Notes: generated by a model from the sequence alone, not told the origin. A stretch of DNA of 64,000 nt from Oscillatoriales cyanobacterium Centralia_MAG_596 (GCA_021323955.1 JAJPKC010000561.1:8234-72233), one strand, 5' to 3'. Counted from the stretch's first letter, positions 35,169-60,304 are shown. Numbers and translations: made by a program.

Positions 35169-35181
35169 GTGGTATTCCCTC
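35169..35181 (-). promoter_or_regulatory. putative late promoter, closest J-box match
   Basis: GAGGGAATACCAC (core GGGAATAC). Confidence 0.6.
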
Positions 35182-35200
35182 GCTCTGCTCTTCCAGGCCT

Positions 35201-35608
35201 TTATTGTTTGGCAAACTCCGTCATGTCAGGAATCTTGACGCTAACCTGTTCGCGGATGTTCTTCTGTTGGTTTGCACCAATGACAATCGATTTTGTATTG
35301 GGGAAGGACAACTCTAACTTGTCGATCGCGGTCTGTAGAGTGTGGCAGCCCTGGTGCTGCACCAGAAAAAGTTGCCATACTCTCTGGCGATGAACACCGC
35401 CATAAACGGCTGGAGAGTTTCGTTCAGGACTACGACGAATAATGATCTCTAGCCCAGTGATGGCGCGATCATTAGGCCGTGTCTCACCCGAATCCTGGAT
35501 GCAGATCGCAGGCGAATCATTGGTCAGCGGGGGCTTCCCAATGGTGTAGGTGCCTAACTCCTCCGCTAAGAGGAGAAGGATGCGATCGCGCAAATCTTCA
35601 GCTTTCAT
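35201..35608 (-). CDS. tail terminator / completion protein
   Basis: Size and position directly upstream of tail tube. Confidence 0.55.
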   Translation of the reverse strand: MKAEDLRDRILLLLAEELGTYTIGKPPLTNDSPAICIQDSGETRPNDRAITGLEIIIRRSPERNSPAVYGGVHRQRVWQLFLVQHQGCHTLQTAIDKLELSFPNTKSIVIGANQQKNIREQVSVKIPDMTEFAKQ

Positions 35609-35877
35609 GGCCCTCTCCTAAGGGTTGGGTCTGATTGATAGGTTTGATAGGTCGCCGCTGGTTTTGGCTTTACGTCTTCCCAGGTATCCAAAAGTAGCTT
35701 CCAGGTTTGTGTGGCTACCAGCATTGCCTGAGCAAACTGGTTAGAGTCTTCGGCATTGTTCCTGATACAGGCTTCTCTAAGTCGTTTTTGAAGGTCGACA
35801 ATGAGCGCTGCTTGCTTGTCGATCGTGCCTTTAATACAGGGTGCTTTATCTTCAATCACAGGTTTATCTTCGGTCAT
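35605..35877 (-). CDS. hypothetical protein
   Basis: Coupled ORF. Confidence 0.5.
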   Translation of the reverse strand: MTEDKPVIEDKAPCIKGTIDKQAALIVDLQKRLREACIRNNAEDSNQFAQAMLVATQTWKLLLDTWEDVKPKPAATYQTYQSDPTLRRGP

Positions 35878-36281
35878 AGTCCTAGCTCCTTCTTCAAGTG
35901 TTCGGCAAAATGCTGAGTCACATTCATGTGCTCCTGAGCCGCTTTATCCCACTGACGACCAGGATAAACCGTCTGATCATCCGTCCAGCCTGTGTAGACT
36001 ACTGCTGCATGGTCACAGTCATATTCGATTGTGGCAACCGTCACGTCACCCTTTTCTTCAATCACCACCGGCTGCTGCGAATCTAATAGTTCTGCCGTGT
36101 CGTTGATGTCCCGTGGGGAATCGACGACTTCCCCGTTACGCCGTTTGGTTTCCTTTCCTGTCCACTGCCACTCAGGGGTGTCCAGTTCTACCTGCAACTG
36201 AGCCGCATACACCTCAGCGGTTTTCGTGAATGCTTTGGTGATGCCAGCGTTGAGCTTGGCACGATCGAAATTAATCCCCAT
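35874..36281 (-). CDS. HK97 gp10-like neck/tail completion protein
   Basis: DSPRDINDTAELLDS..YDCDHAAVVYTG..YPGRQW resembles VDTG.L.S..Y..YA..V..G..PGRP. Confidence 0.65.
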   Translation of the reverse strand: MGINFDRAKLNAGITKAFTKTAEVYAAQLQVELDTPEWQWTGKETKRRNGEVVDSPRDINDTAELLDSQQPVVIEEKGDVTVATIEYDCDHAAVVYTGWTDDQTVYPGRQWDKAAQEHMNVTQHFAEHLKKELGL

Positions 36282-36582
36282 CGACTGGTTCCAGAAGTTG
36301 TTTCACATCGCCAGAGATGGTGAATGAGCCAGTGTAAGAGACGGTTTTAGTCAGCAGGTGCCGATTTTCGCCTTCACCCCCCAGCCGCAGGTTGCCATTC
36401 GCGTCGGTTTCATGGAAATGAATTTTGAGTATCGCCAGTCCATTAGCTGGAATGGCAAGCTCAAGCTCAATGTTGAACGCACGATCGCCAATATCTTGCC
36501 CATCCAGCGTCACGGTGGTACTGCGTGGAGTAGCATTGCCCGTTGTTTTGAGTTCAAAATTCATCGTTGTCTTCTGCCTCAA
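36271..36582 (-). CDS. hypothetical protein
   Basis: Coupled ORF, beta-rich. Confidence 0.55.
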   Translation of the reverse strand: MRQKTTMNFELKTTGNATPRSTTVTLDGQDIGDRAFNIELELAIPANGLAILKIHFHETDANGNLRLGGEGENRHLLTKTVSYTGSFTISGDVKQLLEPVDGD

Positions 36583-36769
36583 TGCCTTTAATTTTGCCCA
36601 ACCGCACCAAACCTATAAAAAGCAAAACCGCCGCACAGGAGAGATTAATGATCGCGTAGGGATTGAGCGGGTCGTGTGCTTTCAGCACATTGGCAATCCA
36701 GCCGCTAAAACTACTGCCAGCCATGACGAAATCTAAGATGGCGATTCGCTGATTTGACCAGTTAAACAT
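36554..36769 (-). CDS. small two-TM membrane protein (holin candidate)
   Basis: Two hydrophobic segments and a charged C-terminus. Confidence 0.45.
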   Translation of the reverse strand: MFNWSNQRIAILDFVMAGSSFSGWIANVLKAHDPLNPYAIINLSCAAVLLFIGLVRLGKIKGIEAEDNDEF

Positions 36770-37220
36770 TTGCCGACTCCTGTGAGTTTGCTAGTTTGAG
36801 CAAGGCACCCGCGATCGCGTTAATCGTCCACTCCATTGCCATACACTCAGTCTGTTCACTTGAGTCTGGTTCAAACGGTGCCATGTGCAGATGCAGCAAC
36901 TCATGGATCAGCGTCTCTTCAAGGTTGTAGGGTCGCATTGGGTTCTGCTTAACAGCATCTTCCGGTGTAACCAGCTTAATGTCTGCCGTTTTCTCGGTTA
37001 TGCGCCAGTGAATACAGCCCTGCGCTTGCGTACTGCTCATATCCATGGCAGGCACAACTTTTACAGTTACATCCCAATCAGCCAGCCTCAGCCGTTGCTG
37101 CCATTCTCGGCATTTCTGCTGCATCTGCTGTTCGAGCGTGAGTTCTGGTGGTGAGCACTTCTGCTGTGTCTGCTGTTCAAGTGCGATGTCCTGGTGGTGC
37201 AATTGTTTGGGTTCAGTCAT
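36762..37220 (-). CDS. zincin-like metallopeptidase
   Basis: EETLIHELLHLH (HExxH) with downstream E. Confidence 0.7.
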   Translation of the reverse strand: MTEPKQLHHQDIALEQQTQQKCSPPELTLEQQMQQKCREWQQRLRLADWDVTVKVVPAMDMSSTQAQGCIHWRITEKTADIKLVTPEDAVKQNPMRPYNLEETLIHELLHLHMAPFEPDSSEQTECMAMEWTINAIAGALLKLANSQESANV

Positions 37221-37238
37221 CGTCTCAGAGCATAATAG

Positions 37239-37255
37239 TGCCCTGGTGTTCCCGC
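37239..37255 (-). promoter_or_regulatory. putative late promoter (extended J-box-like)
   Basis: GCGGGAACACCAGGGCA. Confidence 0.7.
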
Positions 37256-37260
37256 AGCGG

Positions 37261-37884: not shown

Positions 37885-38012
37885 GGCACGTCTTTCTTAA
37901 AGCCCTTCAATGATGGCAGTTTTCGCTTGGGCTGACCCAGCTTCAATTTCTCCAGCCGTCGTGCTTCCTTGCTCCGCCGCGCCGATCGATTCCAGTCCCA
38001 GTTGCCAGACAT

Positions 38013-38858
38013 CTACGTTTTTGCCTTAAAGTCACTGCAGTTTTCCCCATTGCCGTAAGGATGCATACCACAAACCAGCTTGGTGCCGCGGTAGGTATGG
38101 CCGTGCAAGTATTGACATCCATTACAGAGTGCAGGCTGTTTGATAAGTGAGTGAGATTGCGCCTGATTGAATGCATTAAGCACGGCTCGCCCTTGACTGA
38201 ATTCTTCTAGCGCTTCAGCGCGATCGGGTAGCAGCCCAGCACGATCTAACCGTCGATAGTAGGAGTCAGGAGCTTCATGGTTGTACCGGAATGTAGAGAG
38301 CGATTGCCCCCCCTCAATCAGCAGTTCTTCGCGTGTCGCATTGCGCAGATATTGGGCAGTGGATACTGTGCACCTATACCTGACGGCTTCGCCTCGTTGA
38401 GCACTCATTTCAAATGATTCTGGCCGTAGCCGTAGGATCACGTTGAGCGCTAAGTCACCAGCATCTCTGTGATAGCGCCATTCCAAGATGTCGCCAAAAA
38501 TATCTCCTTCCTGGAGCCGTAAAAAAGTCCGGATGGGTGCTCGAAACTCAGCAGCCAAAACAGTGAATCGAATGATGATTGCGTCGTTGTTGAGTGTGAA
38601 ATCTAACAGTGGGAAGGCCAGCCAGTGGGGGCCAAGACGGACTTGGCATAGACCCGGATCGCCCAGGCAGAGTTCCCAGTGTTGTAAATGCAGGAATCTT
38701 GGTGCGGGGATGGATCTGCTTTGTATCGAAGGCTGAGTCCGATCAAAATCAGCCCCCATCCGCGGCTGTATCCTGTTCAGAATCATGCTCTCATAATCGT
38801 GTATGAGCTCTGACTGCCGGCGCAATTCCTCGCCCGATGGCTCTTGAAAATCAGGCAT
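38013..38858 (-). CDS. hypothetical protein with C-terminal Cys/His cluster
   Basis: CNGCQYLHG..VCGMHPYG..CSDF. Confidence 0.6.
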   Translation of the reverse strand: MPDFQEPSGEELRRQSELIHDYESMILNRIQPRMGADFDRTQPSIQSRSIPAPRFLHLQHWELCLGDPGLCQVRLGPHWLAFPLLDFTLNNDAIIIRFTVLAAEFRAPIRTFLRLQEGDIFGDILEWRYHRDAGDLALNVILRLRPESFEMSAQRGEAVRYRCTVSTAQYLRNATREELLIEGGQSLSTFRYNHEAPDSYYRRLDRAGLLPDRAEALEEFSQGRAVLNAFNQAQSHSLIKQPALCNGCQYLHGHTYRGTKLVCGMHPYGNGENCSDFKAKT

Positions 38859-39267
38859 ACTCCGCCCTCGATGTTTGAAACCATCCTACGATTTTAGTCC
38901 CAGCGCTCTCCTCCATCACTGCCCCAATTCCCTCCCTGCCGTAAGGTGGGTTAATCGGAACATTGAGGTAAAAGAAGCCTGGAGTGCCGCTCCAAGTGGC
39001 TACTGCCCAATTTTTGGGCAGAATGCTGAGTGGCAATTTCATCGGCTCCAGACAATAGCCTTCTAGATACAGTGCCGTCTCGTCAATTTCTGGAGCGCGC
39101 TGAATGGTATTGCCATAAGCGGGTACCTTGGCCTCAAGCATGGCGGTGACTCTGATGCTAGTAGTCTCCGCGATCGCATTGCCCACCTCATCAAAAGTAA
39201 TGTCGCCCGTCGGCACCTCAAAAGTGAGTGTGGTGTTGCGAACAAAATCAGGGAATGGGGTTGCCAT
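38851..39267 (-). CDS. head closure / stopper-like protein
   Basis: Size, beta-rich pattern and position. Confidence 0.55.
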   Translation of the reverse strand: MATPFPDFVRNTTLTFEVPTGDITFDEVGNAIAETTSIRVTAMLEAKVPAYGNTIQRAPEIDETALYLEGYCLEPMKLPLSILPKNWAVATWSGTPGFFYLNVPINPPYGREGIGAVMEESAGTKIVGWFQTSRAEYA

Positions 39268-39334
39268 ACAGAAAAGCCCTCTACTCAGAGGGCAGAATAT
39301 CGTTTGAATTTATTGCTCTAGCGTTCCCCGTTCC

Positions 39335-40640: not shown

Positions 40641-41033
40641 TCACTCGCATGGGGGTGGACTTTGGCCTAAACCGCCAGCCTCAATCGCCGGTTTATCGGT
40701 TGGCTGTGCGAAGACGCAACCTCGGAACCCTGGCACCAGCCAGCCTTTGGGATGCGCCTCCGTATCACCAGCGGTTACGCTGCCCGTGACCGCATAAACA
40801 TAATTGGGGCTTTCTAGCGCAATGCCTGCTTGTAGATCGTTAGCATTCGTGGCAAAGGCGTTGTGCTGCAAAAAGTAAAGTAGCTGGGCCTGGTTTGCTG
40901 CTCTGAGAGTGGTATATGCCTCAGCAGTTTTAGCTTTGTTTGCCTGAGTGAGCCACAGTGGGAGCGCGATCGCCGACAGCAACCCAATGATGATGACAAC
41001 GACAAGCAATTCAATCAGCGAAAAGCCTTTCAT
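40641..41033 (-). CDS. type IV pilin (Pilin_GH-like) with prepilin peptidase site
   Basis: MKG|FSLIELLVVVIIIGLLSAIALP..QANKAK..EA..NQAQ..YF..F..SPNYVY matches cyanobacterial PilA-like pilins. Confidence 0.9.
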   Translation of the reverse strand: MKGFSLIELLVVVIIIGLLSAIALPLWLTQANKAKTAEAYTTLRAANQAQLLYFLQHNAFATNANDLQAGIALESPNYVYAVTGSVTAGDTEAHPKGWLVPGFRGCVFAQPTDKPAIEAGGLGQSPPPCE

Positions 41034-41056: not shown

Positions 41057-41067
41057 AGCATTCCTAC
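41057..41067 (-). promoter_or_regulatory. J-box-like promoter of the pilin gene
   Basis: GTAGGAATGCT right after a terminator, 23 nt upstream of ATG. Confidence 0.55.
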
Positions 41068-41095
41068 AAAAAACCCACCGGGCTGCGCGGTGGGT
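41068..41095 (-). terminator. intrinsic terminator upstream of the pilin gene
   Basis: ACCCACCG-N7-CGGTGGGT then TTTTT on the minus strand. Confidence 0.8.
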
Positions 41096-41488: not shown

Positions 41489-41535
41489 CGATTTTAGTTC
41501 CTAACGAATTGGCTGTACAGTCCGCTGTGGTATTC

Positions 41536-43038
41536 CTACGCGGCAACGGGCAACGTTTGAACGGCATGTCGTGCTGCTTCGGCTGCGATCGCGTCGGGTG
41601 TAGGCAACACGGTCTGGTTCTGGGCCTCAAGATCACCAATTTGCCGTAACTCTTCCTTGATATCCGTGTCTGGTGGCAGCCATTTCCGCTCTTGCAGCAT
41701 TTGTAACCCGAGCTGGTTGCTAATCTTGACCCCCATCGCATCCAAAATGGTCTGTACTTCCTGGGGACTCGCAGGCGTTTGCAGAATAGACTCGTTGACA
41801 GTGATCGTGCCGCCCTGGTCTTCTCCGGTGTACTGCACCCAGAGCGCAAAAAGTCGCTGCACAGTGGATTCCTTCCGACGTGCCATGTTTTTCAGGCTGC
41901 ACTGGGTTTGGGCAGTGTCCATCACCACTTCCGTTGCCGTTTTTGCCGCTTCCCCGCCAGTCAAGAAGGCTAGGGACATCCGATCCATGGAGCGTTCCAG
42001 CTTTTCAATATCGGTTTGGGTGGCATTAATGGCATTGCCCGTTGGCTCCGCAAAGAAAAAGTCCCCGTCTGCGGGGATGTCTACAACAGAGTTGGGACCG
42101 ATGATCAGCTTGACCACGCCTTTCAGCAGATCAGCGAGGTTTTTGATCAATCCTTTACGCACGGGCACAGGTAGATTGCATTTATGAATCACCTCATTGA
42201 GGCTCGATCGTTTCTGATAATGCTCAATATTCAACTGAGCCAGATTGAGAAACGGAGGCTGACTTTCAAACCATTTGCTATCGCTAACCGAGTACCAGAC
42301 AAACGGCACAACTTCTAAACCTGTTGCGCCGGATAGCTCCGGTACTAAAACCTTCTGATATTTGCCGCCCTGGATCTGTACCAGTTCATAAACATCAAAT
42401 CTGCCAGGGGTTAGCACCCGATAGTAAGTTTTGGTTTCGACGCCATAATCATCTACTGCTACCAGGCGGCTTTCCTGAATTGTTAAGCGTTGAATGATCG
42501 GCTTACCTTGCTCATAGATAATGCTCCAGTTAAGGATGTTGCGTCGATCGACGGCAACGAGGTACGGTCGTAGCGCATAGTTTTGCTCGTCAGCCGCACT
42601 TTGGATCAGTGGGTTGCCATTTTCATCGGTGGGTTGTGGCGGATGCTCCACCAGAATGCCCATCCCGCCGTCCCGCAGTACTGTCTCATCCTGGTCTGTC
42701 AGAAATGATTCAATGCTGCTGCCTTGCAGGTCGATGTCGTCGCGTGCAGCGGCGATCGACGGTGCCACATCGTCAGATAGAACAAACTCAGATAACAGTC
42801 CGGCGTGACCCTTCAGCGCTGGCTTAAAGCGCGAGTCGAACTGTGTCCGGGCAAGACGGTTTTTGTACGCAAGCGGTGGTTCTTCCTCTTCTTTAGAGAG
42901 GTAATCGCCTTTGCAGCCCTTTAGCTCCTGCCACACATCCCAAACGATTTGCAGTTCGTTTGCCGCGTCGAGATACGTGGGGTGCAGGAAAGAAGGCAGC
43001 GATGGATCTTTGGTGAGTGCGGGGGAAGAGGGATTCAT
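41536..43038 (-). CDS. portal protein (DUF4055-type)
   Basis: YLSKEEEEPPLAYKNRLART..RRNILNW..PPFLNLAQLNIEHYQKRS..AKTATE. Confidence 0.9.
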   Translation of the reverse strand: MNPSSPALTKDPSLPSFLHPTYLDAANELQIVWDVWQELKGCKGDYLSKEEEEPPLAYKNRLARTQFDSRFKPALKGHAGLLSEFVLSDDVAPSIAAARDDIDLQGSSIESFLTDQDETVLRDGGMGILVEHPPQPTDENGNPLIQSAADEQNYALRPYLVAVDRRNILNWSIIYEQGKPIIQRLTIQESRLVAVDDYGVETKTYYRVLTPGRFDVYELVQIQGGKYQKVLVPELSGATGLEVVPFVWYSVSDSKWFESQPPFLNLAQLNIEHYQKRSSLNEVIHKCNLPVPVRKGLIKNLADLLKGVVKLIIGPNSVVDIPADGDFFFAEPTGNAINATQTDIEKLERSMDRMSLAFLTGGEAAKTATEVVMDTAQTQCSLKNMARRKESTVQRLFALWVQYTGEDQGGTITVNESILQTPASPQEVQTILDAMGVKISNQLGLQMLQERKWLPPDTDIKEELRQIGDLEAQNQTVLPTPDAIAAEAARHAVQTLPVAA

Positions 43039-43054
43039 GCCCTGGGGTTCCCAC
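43038..43054 (-). promoter_or_regulatory. putative late promoter abutting the portal ATG
   Basis: GTGGGAACCCCAGGGC-ATG. Confidence 0.7.
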
Positions 43055-54900: not shown

Positions 54901-55447
54901 TGCCGATCTGCGATCGCAGATCGGCGACATTGACCTGTGCGTCAATGGTGACTTTATAGCTACTGGTCTGGAACGATTGCAGCCGTCGCTCCAGGGCGTC
55001 TAGTTGCTGAAAATCAACTCGCGGTGTTAGCGGGGAGCTTTTGAAATAGGCATTGACTTGAGCAAAGTGCCTTTGCTTGAGGTCTAAATGTTTGTTGAGG
55101 GCCGTGAGCTGGCTATCATCAACCAGCGCCGACAGCTTTAGAGTCCGTTCCCCTGCAAAGCGTTTGAGTTGCTGTTCCGCTGCGGCCGTATCCAGTCTGG
55201 CGGTGACAACAACTGTGGCACTGAATGCCTGCAACTGTTTCTCTAGGGCGCTAGTATCGGCACGTAGCCCTACAGTGAGTGGATTAAGAGCGATTCCCTT
55301 AAGCTGGCGTTCAAGTTGCTGAAGGTTGAGATTCACCCCCAACGCGATCGGCTTCAGCGCTAGCGTCTCTAGATCGCGCAGATCACGATTGAATCGACTC
55401 CGATCTAACTGCAACTCAATCGCAGCACTGCCAACGACTTCACTCAT
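45977..55447 (-). CDS. tape measure protein, multidomain (3156 aa)
   Basis: Tape-measure domain IKLDNLKTAL..GSVQAEELRGQLGERIPGALGIAARAMGVTEAQLNKMLETG; N-terminal VGSAAIELQLDRSRF; long coiled coils. Confidence 0.92.
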   Translation of the reverse strand: MSEVVGSAAIELQLDRSRFNRDLRDLETLALKPIALGVNLNLQQLERQLKGIALNPLTVGLRADTSALEKQLQAFSATVVVTARLDTAAAEQQLKRFAGERTLKLSALVDDSQLTALNKHLDLKQRHFAQVNAYFKSSPLTPRVDFQQLDALERRLQSFQTSSYKVTIDAQVNVADLRSQIGTLDVPVVLRYANAQPLAALTQKVEIDTKGIEDSLGNSVERAFQRVKGGGLLSGLGSVLTAPLKLAGGALSTTLSGLTLGATQEVSRNLGKGLSTALEGALSKSVGSSELLGEKVGGAIGSAVVQEFQTQTQNLAQVLEQQIDKIQDGKLRTKLREQLQSVVELPGQVGQAVQGTIGQDNINREGLFQRGQRRQTEQAKTPVLREEAVTEFRESIATSKSVEARATQSKATLEQQIAVRQREVAEVGQQYEQLAIAIQKAEAGGAKVADIEPLAAQLNATAQDFQQLSQSLTALVQARDIATNAVQEAKQKRLAARQQLDQVSPQQQSRAYAELAQSTLGEAFDADKLPKLVVDEARLKAVGAGSLYVPAENAIITTNKIYEAVKSASLTQQQAEVLGEEIAHAEDFDFGSFKGIQAAKDSRPIGRKVTPTAEEATRFAPELGRYAPEKREAELNAKVKGARGAEDYLQRQDRLQAISDASDVAVQGEKFTAPARKAVFKDALITLKQEASKRFVESDEAIGQFIDSYKESLTEIESISQRAAQSAGTATREEVAALQEEMNQAIGSLSHIFDQVRSEIQRVQAIAPEDALQERQQELAGLLKQFSKKELTPLAEQFGVQDAGSLKKKELIQQLTTTADPRQLEPKVFELTRTKAQQQLERQEQRAALAQTAGGVARGAVELAGATASKVQDIATSAPVQNAVQAAGTAGKALLAVGKVGYTVASGMEALALDLVPAGRAIKAIAQQTVVPAALFAGATALLPGGASVAAGLSHVVGGVASPLLHAAGAGATDAATSAIAGHVPNAFGLANGITTALTGAIDSAVNAASAGVAQAGAALLGGKVIQTAAGRTLGGAAQAVNNLAALPPTQAKALPPAPANTPESAITALPPSPASAQSPQVEVVSSPSGKEQRFEELNSQYSAAGLREIAKRVGITSSRARSLKKEDLARELAFTDFGVSIDKVLAEVGDSAKLKAFQDGAKSAAVPTLPASALTAIQKSNDKIKQLYKQFQAAQGQERVAIAQALATASDQQVAAIEDAFKQYQIEGRTAQQLSGFRTQAIQKSEAPRAEARDVARQQIQQTQRQGSTSRNFQTVNATVVDVSAGDDLNAANLLASLREGGQAVNRELSAAIERFNQAQHSLAETIGREVARFAEIEPEATLPATLQKAANTPKGRDLLVNTAGFAASVAGNHFGGAVGGAAGDLIGAITARHVLSGGQHGQGDELFGDLAGFAIGNASAAALGAIPGLGGVPLKGAAVALAAVPQLSKLRQRIQGRLGEDDEAKASGEDLESANLVGGATGLKRTLTSKSRQLLSQLEKQLGDTIDNLALALSSDKDYAGHAGKQEIRALNQLNQTVERLLEERGEIINETFDAEMTRANQELLEIGQRIAAKTAARPDFGLLADRAINDGTQAKSQQVIGENQQDLRANKRRAFELERQTGEAADPGLTRIEDPIAGDDFKGVFSTLRNVLKGVQADIRAAVAKDAEALAVESKSLLNDIRTGQAVAKGSGDRTQETRLRKAGDRTERAIAGSEAILAKPAAQVTSKDISALQGFSKELRSVYALLDRPAPTNPGGLATLSNLLEKAKGATAGFLAGFVGLQLVQSIGFQVIGSIQQLFQGLSADAINASIKLDNLKTALDFSVGGASQGTQSLEFVRKTVADLGTPLESSIEGFSQLSAATRGTAAAGKTTKDVFLGIEQASTVLGLSAEQTGGSLSALTQIASKGSVQAEELRGQLGERIPGALGIAARAMGVTEAQLNKMLETGSLLADDFLPRFGKQLQAEFGDAAKTAGDNAQSAIFRFQNAYLTLQQTVGKELQPGSVVGFKILTSVLQGVTAIAPEIIAGLTAIALTIGVQTAPALFKLIGDLILTKAATGTAIGGLQSFFQTLNTSKAVIGAVGIFALIEYFRLLSETINTELVKSFDDLADSAKRAADNSKEVKLPGQPEKPDNSKQEAKEDAEKPAPLAGPLDVLTRGNIDFSDPNHPKLVGSKTTFRNFGDVERDRVGGDIDKSVSETGQLLSKGRARLTTLDTKTGEGADLQAIDQQLQNAEQQRKSLQAQAEQDYTRKGKTIPAALQQQLQDANTNIQSLVDKRGDAAKPFTDDLNSANKLIDAYKSKLKELDDPKNEGHFGNKAQTEERRKQLQQSLKDVTDFKNQAEEKLGSLKVDPILGMTDGFRNLAAAIESAERATKLFVSQQKDFILKGQLKTFGTDEDAARSAALSNAISDRQGIQQNLDSTDKALKDGGTLLDRPENEAALRGFGVSKDNSIEDIKKELEATPQDDSGKAKRTLLQQLLNFKELQQKRGDLQVNLDEADLKVQDQVQTNTLAVLDRDATKRDQKLKQDDDARAVPVRQASADLARDKANNKFFSESDAAVAEADIGIKTAQNQATSIDQKTDNTQQSLEELNAKKDQLSAEEFNKRQRELTTQLADLRVEKANAAATVEEALAKKVEATNRRIIEGLELANAKAAAAIQLSETNQSTAVKRKFLAAGLTDDAQKQADLEQTGVDERATQQRSQLLQKEIVDYKRAAAEKRISGKELTQKLLEFNQQLAESNGKLVDLQIQRQKQLQDIYNREIDKQVNAQNRADNVAIRGYERQKAAIDRINQSLEITRKLTQSRGDLQQAVAAYNQTIAQGAADSASKILDLFNKSTQEQDPNKQEGYRKILRAQGFQPSGDDDTDRERLLDQKEAAEKNLAAIKERALQTEYAIKQQLLELDLKRDRLQAEQAYREAQIAELNAKKDFTKSTGELKKAIQNGDPEKIAEAKDNLDSSLQAYDLAKQNTAGAQEGVAAIGELEANARAKFDVERDTAFAQTAQEQQNLTVSQATERVEAGLDPDKVLNGGGVQTNYGVQSGNYARRGGYYNDDRGLRDTRSSFSPQPSTPAPDRSSGVVEASGSTGDRLGSFFDSLTSAVTQRLDMVIELMRQDMGNPKSLTFHATDPVESYADYQNRQTGNALRSQPSY

Positions 55448-55473: not shown

Positions 55474-55484
55474 AGAGTTCCTAC
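55474..55484 (-). promoter_or_regulatory. putative late promoter of the tape measure gene
   Basis: TTTGTAGGAACTCT; shares TTTGTAGGAA with the pilin promoter. Confidence 0.55.
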
Positions 55485-55534
55485 AAAGAGGCAACTGGGC
55501 AAATTAAGTAGGAACGCAAGGAGGGCAAATTGTA

Positions 55535-55798
55535 GTGAACGGATCTTCTGTACCCAAGTCGATTCAGCGTCTTCGAATTGGGCTAATTATTGGCTTTGTG
55601 CTGCTGACGTTTAGCAGTTGTGGTTATTGGGTCGGTCGTCCCTGGACGTGCGGGCAAGCAAAAGACATGCTGAAAGCAGAAGAAGCAGATACGCCTCGAT
55701 TTGACAGCTCCGACGTAGCCGCAACCGTCACCAAAACACAATCCCACGTTTATGCGCTCCAGGACGCGCACGCAAATGTTGAACGACTGTGTTATTGA
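55535..55798 (+). CDS. small membrane protein
   Basis: One TM helix; GTAGGAACGC upstream. Confidence 0.55.
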   Translation: MNGSSVPKSIQRLRIGLIIGFVLLTFSSCGYWVGRPWTCGQAKDMLKAEEADTPRFDSSDVAATVTKTQSHVYALQDAHANVERLCY

Positions 55799-55875: not shown

Positions 55876-56166
55876 ATGAACAAAGCTGAATTAGTTGATG
55901 CGATCGTGGCAAAGGCTTCGGTTACCAAAAAGCAAGCAGACGAAATTCTCAGCGCAGCCGTCGATGCCATCATCGAAACGGTGTCAACTGGGGACAAAGT
56001 GACCTTGGTGGGTTTCGGTACGTTTGAATCTAGAGAGCGGCAGGCACGGGAGGGACGTAATCCCTCTACCGGGAAACCGATTCAAATCCCAGCAACCAAG
56101 GTGCCAGCTTTTTCTGCTGGCAAGCTGTTTAAAGAGAAAGTCGCACCAACCAAAGCATCAGTTTAA
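55876..56166 (+). CDS. hup: histone-like DNA-binding protein HU
   Basis: MNKAELVDAI..VTLVGFGTFE..REGRNPSTG..IPA.KVPAFSAGKLFKEKV. Confidence 0.95.
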   Translation: MNKAELVDAIVAKASVTKKQADEILSAAVDAIIETVSTGDKVTLVGFGTFESRERQAREGRNPSTGKPIQIPATKVPAFSAGKLFKEKVAPTKASV

Positions 56167-56242: not shown

Positions 56243-56719
56243 CTACAAACCAAGCTTTTCAGCCGTGCGCTTAGCCCGGGTGATTGCAGGTTTCAATTCT
56301 TGTGCTCGTGCGCGTCGGGCATGGTGGATTCTCGCTTCAGCGATCGCGTCTTCCAGCAACCCTGGTCTATCTTGCGCCACGGCCCACAATCCTTGCAGAA
56401 GTGTTTCTGGTGTAACGCCTGCCTGGTCAGCCGCCTGCTGGATTTGGCGTTTATACCCCTCTTCAACGCGCAACTGAAAGTTAACGACCTTTGGCAAGGC
56501 TGCCAGTTCTCGCTCCAGTGCCGAGATGCCAAAGTCTACAGGTGCGGCAGTTAAGTTGTTTGACCGTTCTTTGACAGGCATTGATTTAGCAGGTGTTGAA
56601 TCAGCTTCTGTGGCTGGACTACCTGTATTTGATTGTAGCGAGGCGGACACCTCGTCAACTCGTTTTTCTACAGTTGGCCGAGTGCGGTTCATGAAGCGAT
56701 CGGCTGCGGTCGGTTTCAT
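56243..56719 (-). CDS. putative centromere-binding adaptor (ParG/ParB type Ib-like, RHH)
   Basis: Coupled to parA; VNFQLRVEEGYKRQIQQAADQAGVTPETLLQ fits RHH. Confidence 0.65.
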   Translation of the reverse strand: MKPTAADRFMNRTRPTVEKRVDEVSASLQSNTGSPATEADSTPAKSMPVKERSNNLTAAPVDFGISALERELAALPKVVNFQLRVEEGYKRQIQQAADQAGVTPETLLQGLWAVAQDRPGLLEDAIAEARIHHARRARAQELKPAITRAKRTAEKLGL

Positions 56720-57531
56720 ACAGGGACTACCTCACTATGAATGGCTGGTACGTACTTGCTCAGACGCTCTAACAGCACGTCGAAAGGCGCTTCCAGCTCC
56801 GCTTTATCGGCATCAAGCTCAGAAGGCAATTGTCCATAATTGAGAGCCTTTTGATAGATAACGGACTCAACTACTGAGGGCAGTATCGTTGCGCCAATGA
56901 AGCTCTCCATCTTGGCAAGCGTGCTCGAGGCCTCACCTGTAAGATGCAATCCAACCACTCGTGCCCGGAAAGGCAGAACGCCAATCAGTTCACCGTCAAA
57001 CGCGTCTCCGTCACGACATTCTTCCAGCAGCGCCCAGGTCTCGGTTAATGACCCCAGCCCTTTCGCAACGGCCTCGGCTGGAATGACGACCACATCTGCC
57101 GCACCGATCGCAGTCAGATTGATGTGATTCTTCTGCGGTGGCGAGTCAATCATAATCAGCCCAAAATCCTGCATGACAGGCTCCAGGCGTTTTTTCAATA
57201 CACGTGAGCAATTCGCTGACGAAGCCAGGTAATGCTGAGCATTGACCAAGGCTCGATCCGAAGGGACGAGAAAGAGATTTTCGCGATCGGGAACAGGGTA
57301 AATCGCGTCCTCAATCGAGCATTTGTTTGTGATGACTTCTAGCAGTGTGGGCTGATTTTCCACTTCAACGCCCAGAAGGTCGGTCAAATTCCGTTGAGGA
57401 TCGCCGTCGATTAGTAGGGTTGGTATACCGAGCTTAGACACTTTCAATCCAATCATATAGGCGGTCAGAGTCTTGCCCTGTCCTCCGCTCAACGACAGCG
57501 ACAGCGCGATCGTTGCTTGGTTGTTTGGCAT
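56716..57531 (-). CDS. parA: ParA/Soj partition ATPase
   Basis: Deviant Walker A SLSGGQGKT, LIDGDPQRNLT, IMIDSPP; start ATG 57531. Confidence 0.92.
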   Translation of the reverse strand: MPNNQATIALSLSLSGGQGKTLTAYMIGLKVSKLGIPTLLIDGDPQRNLTDLLGVEVENQPTLLEVITNKCSIEDAIYPVPDRENLFLVPSDRALVNAQHYLASSANCSRVLKKRLEPVMQDFGLIMIDSPPQKNHINLTAIGAADVVVIPAEAVAKGLGSLTETWALLEECRDGDAFDGELIGVLPFRARVVGLHLTGEASSTLAKMESFIGATILPSVVESVIYQKALNYGQLPSELDADKAELEAPFDVLLERLSKYVPAIHSEVVPV

Positions 57532-57592
57532 ATTGCATCCTTGCACTGATGAATGCATGTAAGTTTGCAGTGTTGTGATCTTATATTCAAAG

Positions 57593-57625
57593 TTGCTTGA
57601 ATGCAAGCATTCAAGCATTCAAGCA
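57593..57625. repeat. ATTCAAGC array upstream of parA
   Basis: GCTTGAAT gcaagc ATTCAAGC ATTCAAGC. Confidence 0.85.
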
Positions 57626-57662
57626 GCTAGGACTAGAAGTCGCCATGAATGAGGATAACAAG

Positions 57663-57693
57663 CCCAACTGGGGACAATTTGTCCCCAGTTGGG
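57663..57693. repeat. 31-bp palindrome (15-bp perfect arms, 1-nt centre)
   Basis: CCCAACTGGGGACAA-T-TTGTCCCCAGTTGGG. Confidence 0.9.
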
Positions 57694-57720
57694 AACGTCC
57701 ACTGTTAGAACTTTTGACGC

Positions 57721-57760
57721 ATTCAAGCATTCAAGCATTCAAGCATTCAAGTATTCAAGC
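57721..57760. repeat. 5 x ATTCAAG(C/T) tandem array
   Basis: ATTCAAGC x3, ATTCAAGT, ATTCAAGC. Confidence 0.9.
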
Positions 57761-58085
57761 ATTTTTGAAGAATGGGGTTATGTTGTGGATATGGCTGAGG
57801 GAATACCAGAGCAGCGTTACCCAACCTGCCATGCAAACCTTTGCGCTTTGTACAGCCGTTTTCACCTCCGAACCATTCCAGAAGTTACCTGATCGCAAGG
57901 TTGCTGATGTTGTTGAAGAAGATAGTGGTCTCGTGCGATTAACCTATCTACACCCTGCAATCAAAAGTCCACAAATTTATCAGTCGATGGACGAGTTGAA
58001 ACAGATTTACTGTGGTGACGGTAGTAAATTCAGATTGGTTTTTCAATCATAGTGGTCATACTTGACACTCATTGATCTCGCCCTC

Positions 58086-58403
58086 TCAAAGGGCGATTTT
58101 TGTAATGCACTGACGGCTCAGTTGATCAAGGTCAAGGTAGCCGTCCGTAATCAGGCCAGACTCTAGCAAGCAAAGGTAGAGGGCCAAAGCGACATCCGCT
58201 TCTAGCTTGGCAGCAAGCCGCTGAAAGTAGTCCGTCTCCTGAGGCGTCAAATCTGTCATGCTGCTATCGCGAAAGTGATGAATTTGTTGCAGGAGTCGAA
58301 TCAGCTTCGTAGCGGCATCTCTGCAATGCATGGTGGATTGGGCGATCGCTTGCAAATCAGAGTTACTGAAAACAAAGGGCTGTAGCTTGAGCTTGAGTCT
58401 CAT
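58086..58403 (-). CDS. hypothetical protein
   Basis: Coupled to upstream ORF. Confidence 0.55.
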   Translation of the reverse strand: MRLKLKLQPFVFSNSDLQAIAQSTMHCRDAATKLIRLLQQIHHFRDSSMTDLTPQETDYFQRLAAKLEADVALALYLCLLESGLITDGYLDLDQLSRQCITKIAL

Positions 58404-59140
58404 CAGAACCTTCTAGGGCGTTTAGGTTGCAAGACATGGGATGGTCCCAACGCCTGCTTTGTATAAAAATCCAGCCACTTCAACCAGTCAATTTTGTTGA
58501 TGAATTCAGTGACGTTACTGTGCTTGCCTGGAGACATCCTTCCTAAACGAGCCACAATCACCCGCGTAATTTTTCGTGCGGCGTGGTGGCGTGCATTCCA
58601 GTAACGGGAGTTCCCTTCCAAATCACAGATGATGGCACAACGACATTCAGTGCGGCGAACCATGCGATCGCGACCTGTCTGATCCGTCTGTTTGAACCGT
58701 CGTCGGCTAATCCACGTGACCATAAATATGTGTTCACCGGCAGCCATCTCATCTCCCATTGAACTCGCAGTCGGAGTTGCGTCCACCGACTCAACGGACA
58801 GGCTGTTTTGCCAATCAGTATAGGTAGGAGCGCTTGGATCTGTGGATCGATAACGTCCGAGGTCTTCGCGCAGCCAGGGGACGTAGATGAGGGTAACGAG
58901 CAAGTCTCGCCAGCAGTAACGGTGGATGATGCGCCAGCTTTCAACAACCCCGGGCGCGTCTGATTCCAGCCTAAGAATAGTCGCGTAGTCGGTAAATAGC
59001 TCCTCAAGGATTTTCGGTTCTGGCTCAGCACCGAGCCGTTCTCGAAACCAGTTGAGCAAGCGTTGGATGAATCGCTGAAAAGTGTTTCCGTTTCCATTAG
59101 AGGCTGTCACAGGAGTAAATTCGATAGGGTTGTTGGTCAA
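58403..59140 (-). CDS. hypothetical protein
   Basis: 245-aa ORF. Confidence 0.65.
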   Translation of the reverse strand: MTNNPIEFTPVTASNGNGNTFQRFIQRLLNWFRERLGAEPEPKILEELFTDYATILRLESDAPGVVESWRIIHRYCWRDLLVTLIYVPWLREDLGRYRSTDPSAPTYTDWQNSLSVESVDATPTASSMGDEMAAGEHIFMVTWISRRRFKQTDQTGRDRMVRRTECRCAIICDLEGNSRYWNARHHAARKITRVIVARLGRMSPGKHSNVTEFINKIDWLKWLDFYTKQALGPSHVLQPKRPRRF

Positions 59141-59149
59141 GACCCTCAG

Positions 59150-59494
59150 CTATTTCGGAAATAGCTGTTTATAGGCATTGATGCGATCTGTTGGAGCGAG
59201 CCGTACAACTGCAGCCGCCAGGGCAATGACGCCAAACCAGCCAGCTCCTTCCTGCCAGGTAAAATTCTCGCTGTTGGCCCGACGAGAAGCTGGCACCAAC
59301 AAAACCGTCAAAACAGCAAAATGGACCAGGATCTCAACCGGATCAATGGGTTGTCCAAAAATACGGATGCGATTTGCCTTTGCACGATTGGGGCAATCGA
59401 TTGGACAGTGTGGAGGGGAATCTTGTGGACTAGAGCCTGGTTCAGACATGGTGATTCCTATTGATAACTCTCCAGGATTCCCGCACGCAGGCAC
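59150..59494 (-). CDS. two-TM membrane protein (holin candidate)
   Basis: Two hydrophobic helices; true start probably MSEPG. Confidence 0.5.
   Translation of the reverse strand: MPACGNPGELSIGITMSEPGSSPQDSPPHCPIDCPNRAKANRIRIFGQPIDPVEILVHFAVLTVLLVPASRRANSENFTWQEGAGWFGVIALAAAVVRLAPTDRINAYKQLFPK
59472..59484 (-). promoter_or_regulatory. J-box-like promoter after the sigma terminator
   Basis: GCGGGAATCCTGG. Confidence 0.5.
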
Positions 59495-59496
59495 GC

Positions 59497-59520
59497 AAAA
59501 AAGCCCCTAATGAGGGGCTT
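59497..59520 (-). terminator. terminator of the sigma factor gene
   Basis: AAGCCCCT-N4-AGGGGCTT plus U run on the minus strand. Confidence 0.8.
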
Positions 59521-59557
59521 GAAAAGGGAGTAATGATAGCCTTACTAGACCTTAAAA

Positions 59558-60304
59558 CTAACTGATTAATGCGACCAGCGCCTTCTGCAAGGTCTGTTTT
59601 ACAGCCCCAGGCTCGATCTGCAACTGGAGAGCAATGGCCTTGCGGCTTTGCCGCTGGAAGTAGATGCCCTGAATCAGTGATCGCTCAACCGGAGATAACC
59701 GATCCACTCGTTGCCGCAATTGGCTCCATGCTGAATCTAAGCGTGCACTTGATTCTTGCTGGTCTGCATAAGTTGAAGGGTCTGCAATTTCTAACGGTTT
59801 GTGGTCTAACGAAATAGCCTGCTGGTTGCCGATCGCCTCACGCACCACGCGCAATTTCTTGACCTCGACTCCCATCAAATCGGCAACCATCTGATCGTCA
59901 GGGATACGGCCATGATGGCGCTCGGCCCAGGCCCGTTCGACTACGTTTGCATTGGCATGCAGTTCACGCCAGCGCCGGGGGATTTTAATGCCTGTCCCGT
60001 GGTCCCGTAGAAAATGAAGGATTTCGCCGCGAATGTAGGGGACGGCAAAGGAGCTAAAGGCCACGCCTTTGGTGGGGTCAAATCGCTCGATTGCTCGGAG
60101 CGCCCCACAAAAGCCAATCTGCTCTAAATCTTCGTAGCTCTCAGTACAGCGGTTCTTCATTCGATGCGCAATTTCCCGCACCAGATTCATGTGGTCAAGC
60201 GCCACCTCGTTCCGCAACTGCGCATCCTGCTGCTGGGAGACCGTTCTTTGTTTGTAGTATCTCCAGAGCTTCTCTGAAGGGTTACGGGTTGGCGCGGCTA
60301 TCAT
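59558..60304 (-). CDS. group 3 sigma factor, SigF/SigJ (SigB/F/G-like)
   Basis: Region 2 LVREIAHR..YEDLEQIG..RAIERFDPTKGVAFSSFAVPYIRGEILHFLRD; region 3 VKIPR; region 4 LSPVERSLIQGIYFQRQSRKAIA. Confidence 0.9.
   Translation of the reverse strand: MIAAPTRNPSEKLWRYYKQRTVSQQQDAQLRNEVALDHMNLVREIAHRMKNRCTESYEDLEQIGFCGALRAIERFDPTKGVAFSSFAVPYIRGEILHFLRDHGTGIKIPRRWRELHANANVVERAWAERHHGRIPDDQMVADLMGVEVKKLRVVREAIGNQQAISLDHKPLEIADPSTYADQQESSARLDSAWSQLRQRVDRLSPVERSLIQGIYFQRQSRKAIALQLQIEPGAVKQTLQKALVALIS

What the first reader, a model, noticed from the sequence alone, without database searches (positions are those of the whole stretch)
35169..60304. Possible cross-wiring between the phage late programme and the host motility (SigJ/SigF-pilus) regulon
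Known: SigF in Synechocystis and SigJ in Nostoc activate pilA and pilus/hormogonium genes. Seen: this element carries both such a sigma and a pilin, and its putative late promoters resemble the J-box. Inference, two testable directions: (a) the phage sigma switches on host pilus/motility genes so infected filaments disperse or present receptors; (b) host SigJ/SigF fires phage promoters during hormogonium differentiation, linking virion production to the motile stage.
Basis: inference. Interest (0 to 1): 0.75.

Follow-up and report, generated by a model that had tools for sequence, protein, structure and literature searches.

The report
Phage SigF-like sigma with own promoters
A virus of a filamentous cyanobacterium carries its own copy of a motility-type sigma factor, and about sixteen matching promoter-like boxes sit in front of its particle genes, one of them ahead of a borrowed pilin gene; this looks like the virus's private late-gene switch, not shown wiring into the host's motility programme.

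Summary
A SigF-family sigma gene lies at 59558-60304(-). A type IV pilin gene lies at 40641-41033(-). A repeated box, G-N-(G/A)GGAA(C/T)-N-C-(C/T)-A, sits 5-110 nt upstream of about 16 genes, mostly virion genes. The box shares GGGAA..C.A with the cyanobacterial J-box (GGGaAtacT). Most copies have C where every true J-box examined has T, and they score only 3-10 bits on a J-box matrix (true J-boxes mostly 14-21 bits).

The window is part of a 73-kb siphovirus contig of the P-SS2/S-CBS2 lineage, binned with a Stenomitos-like host. That lineage has been known since 2009 to carry a group-3 sigma next to its terminase genes. S-CBS2 shows an analogous box (16 copies on the gene strand, 0 on the other).

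The phage box is 28 times rarer per base in the host genome and is absent from host pilus genes. The pilin is missing from nine sigma-bearing relatives, and it sits behind a promoter-like site that also exists in a pilin-less relative.

Best reading: a self-contained phage late-transcription system descended from the SigF/SigJ-J-box system, with the pilin as sporadic cargo. Cross-wiring is mechanistically possible but has no positive evidence. No transcript data could be obtained.

The parts
59558..60304 (-). Phage sigma factor, SigF family (group 3), 248 aa
   Evidence: Pfam r2 and r4. NF005644 SigF is the best model, at 194 bits, below its cut-off. It falls in a phage-only clade with 100/100 support. 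No J-box-like box lies directly upstream.
59501..59520 (-). Intrinsic terminator after the sigma gene
   Evidence: 8-bp stem followed by a T run. Conserved in L005.
59474..59482 (-). Box GGGAATCCT just after that terminator, ahead of the gene starting at ATG 59449
   Evidence: L005 has GGGAATGCT at the orthologous place. J-box matrix score 10.4 bits.
58086..59449 (-). Three genes of unknown function downstream of that box (59150-59449, 58403-59140, 58086-58403)
   Evidence: No Pfam, PHROG or NCBIfam hit.
57799..57813 (+). Box GGGAATACCAGAGCA in the divergent gap between the parA operon and the small gene at 57831-58052(+)
   Evidence: L001/L005 carry GGGAATACCAGGGCA at the orthologous place.
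55474..55482 (-). Box (GT)AGGAACTCT ahead of the 3156-aa tape-measure-like gene (45977-55447)
   Evidence: The sequence is identical in L005 ahead of its TMP gene.
55510..55518 (+). Box (GT)AGGAACGCA facing the other way in the same 87-nt divergent gap, ahead of 55535-55798(+)
   Evidence: No sigma-70-type promoter was found in this gap.
43038..43052 (-). Box GGGAACCCCAGGGCA whose last base is the A of the portal start codon (portal 41536-43038)
   Evidence: The portal N-termini are conserved from Met1 in the window and L005, so the portal mRNA is a candidate leaderless transcript.
41529..41537 (-). Box (GT)AGGAATACC ahead of two small genes (41309-41488, 41139-41312)
41073..41095 (-). Intrinsic terminator upstream of the pilin
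   Evidence: Also present in the pilin-less relative L005.
41057..41065 (-). Box (GT)AGGAATGCT, 23 nt upstream of the pilin ATG
   Evidence: The 27-nt stretch TTTTTTGTAGGAATGCTGAGGCAGTTG is identical in L005, which has no pilin.
40641..41033 (-). Type IV pilin (Pilin_GH family), 130 aa, leader MKG, two C-terminal cysteines
   Evidence: It is 45-54% identical to host PilA-like proteins on C441 and C406. The next gene starts 3 nt after its stop codon.
39314..39328 (-). Box GGGAACGCTAGAGCA, followed by a hairpin (39276-39293) and gene 38851-39267
   Evidence: L005 has GGGAACCCTAGAGCG plus a hairpin that differs in its loop.
37239..37253 (-). Box GGGAACACCAGGGCA ahead of gene 36762-37220
35171..35179 (-). 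Box GGGAATACC ahead of the 305-aa tube-like gene (34219-35136)
   Evidence: Weak tail-tube hit. Identical box in L005.
34130..34138 (-). Box GGGAACTCC ahead of the gene starting at ATG 34103
   Evidence: Identical box in L005.
32933..32947 (-). Box GGGAACACCAGGGCA ahead of gene 32423-32914
   Evidence: Followed by the hairpin GGGCAG..CTGCCC, z = -3.3.
29996..30010 (-). Box GGGAACGACAGGGCA ahead of gene 29264-29974
27135..27153 (-). Box GGGAACTCCAGGGCATACT ahead of the scaffold gene (26280-27116); its second half, GGGCATACT, is the most J-box-like site in the window
   Evidence: Scaffold identified by PHROG 206. J-box matrix score 13.1 bits.
25939..25947 (-). Box GGGAATAAC, 114 nt upstream of the major head gene (24889-25824)
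   Evidence: Major head protein identified by PHROG 212. This is the weakest assignment because of the distance.
4721..4729 (+). Box (GT)AGGAACCCT in the divergent gap ahead of gene 4758-5801(+)

Best explanation
The window is most of the genome of a siphovirus of the P-SS2/S-CBS2 cyanophage lineage. It is probably temperate or plasmid-like, and it is binned with a Stenomitos/Leptolyngbya-like filamentous cyanobacterium.

The phage carries a SigF-family (group 3) sigma factor from an old, phage-only branch. This sigma most likely joins the host RNA polymerase core and starts transcription at about 16 promoters that have no -35 element. Their conserved part is an extended -10-like box, G-N-(G/A)GGAA(C/T)-N-C-(C/T)-A, often followed by GGGC-A. 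These promoters sit in front of the portal, scaffold, head, tube, tape-measure and other virion genes. They also sit in divergent gaps and directly after terminators.

The box descends from the J-box read by cellular SigJ/SigF, but it has drifted (C instead of T at the last -10 position, a G+C-rich discriminator) and is almost absent from the host chromosome. The system is therefore mainly the phage's private late switch. The pilin gene is lineage-specific cargo dropped behind one pre-existing promoter of this kind, so it would be made together with late proteins.

Shown: the genes, the boxes, their enrichment, their positions and their conservation in relatives. Inferred: that the boxes are promoters, that this sigma reads them, the timing of expression, and what the pilin does.
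For: Sigma identity and branch:
- Domain and family hits and 39-43% identity to cellular SigF.
- 19 phage-type sigmas form a clade with 100/100 support, apart from cellular SigF including both host paralogs.
- Regions 2.3/2.4/3.0 are almost identical to host paralog C542, while the region 4.2 helix has diverged. This fits promoters that depend on the -10 element and lack a -35.

Boxes:
- Five exact copies of a box with 13 specified bases, all upstream of genes.
- Top hexamer enrichment in upstream regions.
- 6 of the 8 genome-wide copies of the composite box lie on this one contig.
- No conserved position upstream of -2 in 27 aligned sites.

Placement expected of promoters:
- Three divergent gaps that must hold promoters, where no sigma-70-type match was found.
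- Two sites directly after intrinsic terminators.

Conservation with the sigma:
- Same boxes at orthologous places in L005, whose sigma is 72% identical.
- GGGAAT boxes ahead of the gene that precedes the terminase-sized gene (probable terS) in L001, L002 and L004, whose sigmas are 72%, 51% and 44% identical.
- Four same-strand composite boxes in a provirus whose sigma is 47% identical.
- S-CBS2, with the syntenic group-3 sigma gp077 (FSSLAIPTIRGELLHWVRD), has GG[CA]A[TC][AC]CTA 16 times on the gene strand and 0 times on the other, against about 3 expected.

Geometry: the portal ATG lies 6-7 nt after the 9-mer in two phages. That is where the J-box paper places the start site relative to its -10 element.

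Pilin as cargo: absent from L001/L005, L002, L004, S-CBS2 and 9 IMG/VR relatives. The terminator and box upstream of it are identical in pilin-less L005.
Against: - No transcript ends are available, so neither promoter activity nor the start sites are shown.
- In the five composite sites the conserved AGGGCA pairs with a complement just before the ATG (z from -1.3 to -3.3, with one compensatory change at the scaffold site). A start site 6-7 nt after the 9-mer would cut that hairpin. This fits an RNA-level role at least as well.
- C at the position equivalent to -7 is unusual for sigma-70-family -10 elements.
- The sigma gene has no recognisable promoter of its own, so the trigger is unknown.
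- The host link rests on binning plus shared short repeats.
- The site list was partly assembled by eye, and the phage matrix was trained on it.
Confidence: 0.6

Rival explanations
1. Cross-wiring, direction (a). The phage sigma also reads host J-boxes (pilB, the neighbouring dnaK, and others) and so changes host pilus or motility gene expression during infection or lysogeny, while the phage supplies its own pilin.
For: The -10-reading segment of the phage sigma is almost identical to that of the host SigF-family paralog C542. The host has canonical J-boxes at pilB (GGGCATATT) and at the adjacent dnaK (GGGAATATT, 15.9 bits). J-box promoters do not need a -35 element, so the diverged region 4 of the phage sigma need not prevent recognition. 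There is a precedent: Bacillus phage sigma homologues alter the host sporulation programme (PMC9429907, title and abstract only).
Against: The box the phage actually uses is 28 times rarer per base in the host and is not upstream of any recognisable pilus gene. Ten of 16 phage boxes have C at the position where all 36 pilB J-boxes have T, which suggests a shifted specificity. The sigma-plus-box pair also exists in marine picocyanobacterial phages. The pilin does not travel with the sigma.
Confidence: 0.13
2. Cross-wiring, direction (b). Host SigJ/SigF fires some phage promoters, linking phage gene expression to the host's motile state. The best candidates are the boxes that keep T at position 9: 59474-59482, 39320-39328, the pilin box, the TMP box, and the second half of the scaffold box.
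For: A minority of boxes score 10-13 bits on the pan-cyanobacterial J-box matrix. That lies within the range of true J-boxes, whose lowest score is 4.6 bits. In relatives L002 and L004 the sigma gene lies downstream of terS-terL, which carry a GGGAAT box. A host sigma of this family could therefore be what first switches the system on.
Against: Most boxes score 3-8 bits. About 0.03-0.2% of random host positions do as well. The sigma gene in this phage has no such box upstream. The host is a Leptolyngbya-like organism for which a hormogonium programme is not established.
Confidence: 0.12
3. The box plus hairpin is an RNA-level signal, not a promoter. It would act within long late transcripts as a processing or stabilising site, or as a translational operator placed just before start codons.
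For: Hairpins begin right after the 9-mer and end 0-3 nt before the ATG at the composite sites. There is one compensatory change, AGGGCAT/ATGCCCT against GGGCAG/CTGCCC. There is little room for a ribosome-binding site.
Against: Boxes occur in both orientations in divergent gaps, where transcripts must begin. Two boxes sit directly after terminators. Half of the sites have no significant hairpin. The box resembles the -10 element read by the sigma's cellular relatives.
Confidence: 0.15
4. The boxes are bound by another phage-encoded transcription factor, and the sigma factor has different targets that were not identified here.
For: No direct link between this sigma and these boxes has been shown. 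Several small DNA-binding proteins are encoded nearby: HU at 55876-56166 and an HTH protein at 63255-63572.
Against: The box co-occurs with the sigma across relatives with 35-72% sigma identity. It matches the family's known -10 grammar. It is not palindromic, unlike most sites bound by dimeric factors.
Confidence: 0.07

Closest known systems
Group-3 sigma factor of cyanosiphoviruses P-SS2 (ORF003) and S-CBS2 (gp077)
   Same: Same phage lineage: the portal is 34-37% identical. In P-SS2, S-CBS2 and the relatives L002/L004 a short SigF-like sigma is encoded right after terS-terL. The region 2 signature FSS.A.P.IRGE.LH..RD is shared. S-CBS2 also has a J-box-like box on the virion-gene strand.
   Different: Identity is only 35%, over region 2 only. 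In this phage the sigma gene is separated from the terminase genes. The P-SS2 paper searched only for sigma-70-type promoters and named no target for the group-3 sigma. Most boxes here end in C rather than T.
Cyanobacterial SigJ and the J-box, GGGaAtacT (Gonzalez et al. 2019, PMC6495340)
   Same: Same sigma family. Same promoter plan: a G-rich extension plus a -10 element, with a weak or absent -35. The box shares GGG, A, A, C at position 8 and A at position 10. GGGAAC variants occur naturally at pilB in several cyanobacteria.
   Different: T9 is invariant in the 36 pilB J-boxes but is present in only 5 of 16 boxes here. True J-boxes are followed by A/T-rich sequence, these by AGGGC. Five boxes begin AGG. 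Matrix scores are 3-10 bits here against mostly 14-21 bits for true J-boxes.
Synechocystis SigF and the pilA1 promoter (-32 TAGGC, -12 GGTAA; Asayama and Imamura 2008, PMC2532724)
   Same: Same sigma family, with a G-rich -12/-10 element. The host pilA here carries GGGTAC.
   Different: The phage boxes read GGGAA(C/T), not GGGTA, and have no conserved -32 element.
Bacillus phage SigF/SigG-like sigma factors that alter sporulation (PMC9429907)
   Same: A phage copy of a host developmental group-3 sigma. These are the nearest hits among cultured phages outside cyanophages, at 27-34% identity.
   Different: Different host phylum and regulon. Here a full set of cognate boxes sits on the phage's own virion genes, which points to a role in phage transcription.
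Classical phage late sigma systems (SPO1 gp34, T4 gp55)
   Same: A phage-encoded sigma redirects the host core polymerase to -35-less late promoters in front of virion genes (established knowledge).
   Different: Unrelated sigma lineages and promoter sequences. No co-activator has been identified here.
Phage-borne pilin genes (PHROG 3433 'pilin', moron category)
   Same: N-terminal prepilin motif and small size, carried by a tailed phage.
   Different: The match covers only the N-terminal 45 residues. No GenBank phage has a homologue. The gene is not an autonomous moron, because it shares its transcription unit with the next virion gene.

Membership tests
Sigma-70 family, group 3 (SigB/SigF/FliA type) | Regions 2, 3 and 4 present, no region 1.1, about 250 aa | tested here: met
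   r2 63 bits and r4_2 28.6 bits. r3 scores 19.8 bits, just under its cut-off. Length 248 aa. TIGR02980 SigBFG scores 130 bits.
Cellular cyanobacterial SigF/SigJ (NCBIfam NF005644) | Score above the curated cut-off of 261 bits | tested here: not met
   194-195 bits, against 416 and 400 bits for the two host paralogs. It branches in a separate phage clade. I could not tell which host paralog is SigF and which is SigJ.
Cyanosiphovirus group-3 sigma (P-SS2 ORF003 type) | Encoded in a P-SS2/S-CBS2-like siphovirus, syntenic with terS-terL, SigF-like region 2 | tested here: inconclusive
   Lineage and region 2 are met. Synteny is met in relatives L002 and L004 but not in this phage, where the terminase lies about 4 kb away across opposite-strand genes.
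J-box promoter | Invariant GGG trio | tested here: inconclusive
   11 of 16 window sites have GGG and 5 have AGG.
J-box promoter | Near-invariant A (position 5) and T (position 9) of the -10 hexamer | tested here: not met
   A5 is present in 16 of 16 sites. T9 is present in 5 of 16, with C in 10. All 36 pilB J-boxes have T9.
J-box promoter | Transcript start about 7 nt downstream, dependence on SigJ | not testable with these tools
Only the portal ATG spacing is suggestive.
Type IV pilin | Prepilin leader ending in G, then F-x-L-I-E and a hydrophobic helix | tested here: met
   MKG|FSLIELLVVVIIIGLLSAIALP. TIGR02532 scores 29.5 bits against a cut-off of 16.3.
Type IV pilin | Globular domain of the cyanobacterial Pilin_GH type with a C-terminal cysteine pair | tested here: met
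   Precomputed Pfam PF16734. It aligns with host PilA-like proteins over about 100 residues. C106 and C129 are present. Processing and assembly were not tested.
Moron (autonomous cargo gene) | Own promoter and own terminator flanking the gene | tested here: not met
   The upstream terminator and box pre-exist in pilin-less L005. There is no downstream terminator, and the next gene starts 3 nt after the stop codon.

The most novel reading that the evidence does not exclude
The phage sigma and the host SigJ/SigF still share enough -10 grammar for real two-way traffic. A host motility-stage sigma would give the first push to the phage late genes. The phage sigma would in turn switch on the host pilB/J-box genes while the phage pilin is made. 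Infected filaments would then build a phage-modified pilus, for dispersal, receptor display or receptor masking. This would be a cyanobacterial counterpart of Bacillus phage sigmas that rewire sporulation.
Probability: 0.1. Interest if true: 0.8.

Novelty: new member of a known kind. Interest (0 to 1): 0.45.

Why it matters
Group-3 sigma genes have been noted in cyanosiphoviruses since 2009, but the P-SS2 paper named no target for them. This window, its metagenomic relatives and the cultured phage S-CBS2 together give a concrete candidate promoter set. That set ties the phage late programme by descent to the SigF/SigJ-J-box system that controls pili and motility in cyanobacteria.

This makes several things directly testable with ordinary reporter and in vitro transcription assays:
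- the specificity of this sigma family, in particular the T-to-C difference at the last -10 position;
- possible leaderless late mRNAs;
- whether a phage pilin made late alters the host pilus.

If cross-talk exists, it would link phage production to host motility. If it does not, the system is a natural example of a promoter and sigma pair that has become orthogonal to its cellular ancestor.

Tried and rejected
- Literal J-box search: GGGAATACT with 1 mismatch and GGGNATNNT are both at chance level.
- GTAGGAATRC as a stand-alone 10-mer is not significant by itself: 7 matches against 4.5 expected.
- Two-block (ECF-like or -35/-10) architecture: no conserved position upstream of -2 or beyond +12 in 27 aligned sites.
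- Sigma-70-type promoters: fewer consensus matches than in shuffles across the region.
- Assigning the two host paralogs (C438, C542) to SigF or SigJ: both exceed the same NCBIfam cut-off, and public names call the C542 type SigF. No labelled reference sequence could be fetched, so the assignment is unresolved.
- CRISPR-type host link: there are no spacer-like exact matches between C32 and the rest of the bin, only shared short repeats.
- Single-protein scan of IMG/VR found nothing. The alignment-based scan found 10 loci.
- Pilin in GenBank phages: no match.
- tRNA genes: none in the window.
- Terminal repeat on the contig: none. The contig is cut inside the terminase gene.

Full report
**What the window is**

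The window is C32:8234-72233 of a 704-contig, 6.96-Mb metagenome-assembled genome. The genome is 92% complete with 0.7% contamination. The 73.4-kb contig looks viral from end to end and is cut inside a terminase-like gene, with no terminal repeat.

Its portal (41536-43038, minus strand; PHROG 145, 293 bits) is 34-37% identical to the portals of the cyanosiphoviruses S-CBS2, S-CRES1-3 and P-SS2. Other virion genes were recognised: scaffold (26280-27116), major head protein (24889-25824) and head-decoration or fibre proteins, plus a weak tail-tube match at 34219-35136.

The rest of the bin is close to Stenomitos/Leptolyngbya. Its SigF-type protein is 96% identical to that of Stenomitos frigidus. 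The phage contig shares short heptamer-type repeats with at least 15 host contigs. That, together with binning, is the only host link.

**The sigma factor**

The gene is at 59558-60304 (minus strand) and encodes 248 aa with sigma-70 regions 2, 3 (weak) and 4. Its best curated family is cyanobacterial SigF (NF005644), at 194 bits, under the 261-bit cut-off. Identity to cellular SigF proteins is 39-43%.

The host bin has two full-scoring members of that family, on C438 and C542 (416 and 400 bits). They are presumably SigF and SigJ, but I could not tell which is which.

In a maximum-likelihood tree, 19 phage-type proteins (42-75% identical to this one, from metagenomic contigs of up to 69 kb) form a clade with 100/100 support. 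The clade is separate from cellular SigF and from both host paralogs. This is therefore an old viral lineage, not a recent capture.

The segment that reads the -10 element, FSSFAVPYIRGEILHFLRD...KIPRRW, is almost identical to that of host paralog C542. The region 4.2 helix has diverged.

**The sigma is not new as a kind**

P-SS2 was reported in 2009 to encode a group-3 sigma (ORF003) directly after terS and terL. Its targets were unknown, because only sigma-70-type promoters were searched (PMC2784084). S-CBS2 has the same arrangement, terS-terL-gp077. Region 2 of gp077 is 35% identical to the sigma here and carries the same signature. The metagenomic relatives L002 and L004 show the same layout, a 165-170-aa gene and a 534-538-aa gene (the size of terS and terL) followed by the sigma gene.

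Among cultured phages outside this lineage, the nearest hits are Bacillus phage SigF-like sigmas (27-34%) and a Microcystis phage FliA-like protein (29%).

**The promoter-like boxes**

The published J-box is GGGaAtacT. It is an extended -10 element with a weak -35, and the start site lies about 7 nt after the final T (PMC6495340). A literal search for it in the window gives chance numbers.

Reading the upstream regions showed a different, recurring box. GGGAACNNCAGGGCA occurs five times exactly, always on the minus strand, and 0-22 nt before the start codons of the portal, the scaffold gene and three other virion genes. With up to 2 mismatches there are 8 matches against 2.0 expected, and 0 of 100 shuffles reach 8. 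Six of the eight copies of the composite box in the whole 6.96-Mb bin lie on this contig.

An unbiased count of hexamers in 45 upstream regions puts GTAGGA (6 seen, 0.39 expected), GGGAAC (7 seen, 0.8 expected) and TAGGAA (5 seen, 0.32 expected) at the top.

Sixteen window sites and eleven sites from the relative L005 align to G-N-(G/A)GGAA(C/T)-N-C-(C/T)-A-(G/C)-(A/G)-G. No position upstream of -2 is conserved.

**Why these are most likely promoters**

- They occupy three divergent gaps where transcripts must begin. In two of those gaps a box faces each way (55474-55482 and 55510-55518; 57799-57813; 4721-4729). No sigma-70-type match was found there.
- Two of them follow intrinsic terminators directly: one after the sigma gene and one before the pilin gene.
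- They recur at orthologous places in L005 (sigma 72% identical), while the flanking sequence has changed.
- GGGAAT boxes precede the 165-171-aa gene upstream of the terminase-sized gene (probable terS) in L001, L002 and L004.
- A provirus whose sigma is 47% identical has four composite boxes, all on one strand.
- S-CBS2 has GG[CA]A[TC][AC]CTA sixteen times on the virion-gene strand and never on the other strand, against about three expected in total.
- The portal ATG lies 6-7 nt after the 9-mer in both the window and L005, and the two portal proteins are conserved from the first methionine. That is where a J-box-type start site would fall, so the portal mRNA may be leaderless.

**How J-box-like the boxes are**

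I built a matrix from 36 pilB J-boxes of diverse cyanobacteria listed in Data Set S2C of the J-box paper. True J-boxes mostly score 14-21 bits (lowest 4.6). The phage boxes score 3-10 bits, a level reached by 0.006-0.2% of random host positions.

The shared part is GGG-A-A, C at position 8 and A at position 10. GGGAAC variants do occur at pilB in Geitlerinema, Stanieria, Microcystis and others.

The differences are systematic. Position 9 is T in all 36 J-boxes, but it is C in 10 of the 16 window boxes. The downstream sequence is G+C-rich rather than A/T-rich. Five boxes begin AGG.

The most J-box-like site in the window is GGGCATACT (27135-27143), the second half of the scaffold box, at 13.1 bits.

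**Testing the cross-wiring idea in silico**

The host does appear to have a J-box regulon:
- pilB carries GGGCATATT 32 nt before its ATG.
- The adjacent dnaK carries GGGAATATT, scoring 15.9 bits.
- Exact GGGAATACT is 2.3 times denser in intergenic DNA than in coding DNA.
- The host pilA has a GGGTAC element of the SigF -12 type.

A matrix built from the phage boxes finds 21.8 hits per 100 kb on the phage contig and 0.77 per 100 kb in the host. Only five host hits are intergenic and point at a gene, and none of those genes is a recognisable pilus gene. GGGAACNCC shows no intergenic enrichment in the host.

So the phage's own promoter type is not part of the host motility regulon, and most phage boxes are poor J-boxes. 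Even so, the near-identity of the -10-reading segment means that cross-recognition cannot be excluded. This applies to the phage sigma on host J-boxes, and to host SigJ/SigF on the few phage boxes that keep T9.

The sigma-plus-box pairing is also present in S-CBS2, and the syntenic sigma is also in P-SS2. Both are phages of marine picocyanobacteria, and the P-SS2 paper reports that group-3 sigmas are uncommon among Prochlorococcus. This argues that the primary job of the sigma is phage transcription.

**The pilin**

The gene is at 40641-41033 (minus strand). It encodes a 130-aa prepilin with a three-residue leader (MKG|FSLIE), a Pilin_GH domain and two C-terminal cysteines. It is 45-54% identical to the two PilA-like proteins of the bin and 60% identical to one other metagenomic protein, which is encoded next to an HU gene. 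The identical gene sits at the same place in contigs from two other samples.

It is absent from L001/L005, L002, L004 and S-CBS2. It is also absent from nine IMG/VR records that carry the sigma, three of them complete. The same search finds six pilins in the window's own genome, which serves as a positive control. No GenBank phage has a homologue.

In pilin-less L005, the terminator and the 27 nt TTTTTTGTAGGAATGCTGAGGCAGTTG are identical to those in the window. They are followed by a short remnant, a second terminator-like hairpin and a second box. In the window, the next virion gene starts 3 nt after the pilin stop codon.

The pilin is therefore cargo in a variable slot behind a pre-existing promoter-like site. 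It is not a gene with a promoter of its own, and it is not a conserved partner of the sigma.

My guess, by inference only, is that it is made late, processed by the host prepilin peptidase, and either masks or alters the host pilus. A receptor-masking role of the kind known from other phages is the simplest version.

**What remains unexplained**

At the composite sites the conserved AGGGCA(G) pairs with a complement that ends 0-3 nt before the ATG. The fold z-scores run from -1.3 to -3.3, and there is one compensatory pair of changes at the scaffold site. If transcription starts 6-7 nt after the 9-mer, the 5' arm of this hairpin is not in the RNA. The hairpin would then matter only on read-through transcripts or at the DNA level. 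Alternatively, the start site lies further upstream than the J-box geometry predicts.

This is the main reason I give the RNA-element rival 0.15.

The trigger for the sigma gene itself is also unknown.

**Verdict**

The feature is a new member of a known kind: a phage-encoded sigma with cognate late promoters, in a lineage already known to carry the sigma. It adds a newly defined promoter set, a candidate leaderless portal mRNA and a sporadic pilin cargo. I treat that as agreement, not as independent evidence.

Noticed in passing
window 56243-57760: A ParA-like ATPase (56716-57618) is followed by a 158-aa gene. The homologue of that gene in relative L001 carries Pfam McdB, the partner protein of the carboxysome-positioning system. 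ATTCAAGC repeat arrays flank the operon. This looks like a plasmid-style partition module on a phage.
   Followed up: partly
window 45977-55447 compared with L005:19485-21497: The 3156-aa tape-measure-like gene and its divergent promoter gap lie between the HU gene and the portal gene here. In the relative they follow the tail chaperone genes, the usual position. This indicates a block translocation between close relatives.
   Followed up: no
window 24840-24877 and about 26020-26045; host contigs C26, C68, C189, C563 and others: Heptamer-type tandem repeats (CCTTTAG/CCTTCAT, and CT-rich CTCCCCTCACTCCTA units upstream of the head gene) are shared between phage intergenic regions and at least 15 host contigs. 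They resemble cyanobacterial STRR repeats and support the phage-host link.
   Followed up: partly
window 43038-43052; L005:9984-10003: The portal start codon abuts the promoter-like box in two phages, leaving no room for a leader or ribosome-binding site. The portal mRNA is a candidate leaderless transcript.
   Followed up: partly
window 27116-27146, 29974-30001, 32914-32938, 37220-37244: Hairpins are formed by the conserved AGGGCA(G) and a complement that ends just before the ATG, with one compensatory change at the scaffold site. Their role is unexplained.
   Followed up: partly
L005:11780-11928: At the place where this phage has the pilin, the relative has an 'empty slot': box, about 45 nt, terminator-like hairpin, second box, then the 221-aa gene. 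This suggests a recurrent cargo insertion site.
   Followed up: partly
L101 (S-CBS2) 7387-41505: The cultured phage S-CBS2 has GG[CA]A[TC][AC]CTA 16 times on the virion-gene strand and 0 times on the other, 15-30 nt before start codons. I found no description of this in the papers I read.
   Followed up: partly
C32:44-8233 (left of the window): Read from translations only: a LexA-like N-terminal domain, QueE-like and QueD-like proteins, and a ParB-like protein. This suggests a 7-deazaguanine DNA-modification module and a repressor.
   Followed up: no
host contig C185:14979-16850: The host dnaK and pilB are divergent neighbours, each with a canonical J-box (GGGAATATT and GGGCATATT). This fits the published link between a DnaK system and type IV pili.
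   Followed up: no
IMG/VR records behind L105, L108, L109, L110: Four of the nine sigma-bearing viral records are classed as proviruses, and relative L004 encodes an integrase next to a GGGAACTCC box. The lineage is therefore at least partly temperate.
   Followed up: no
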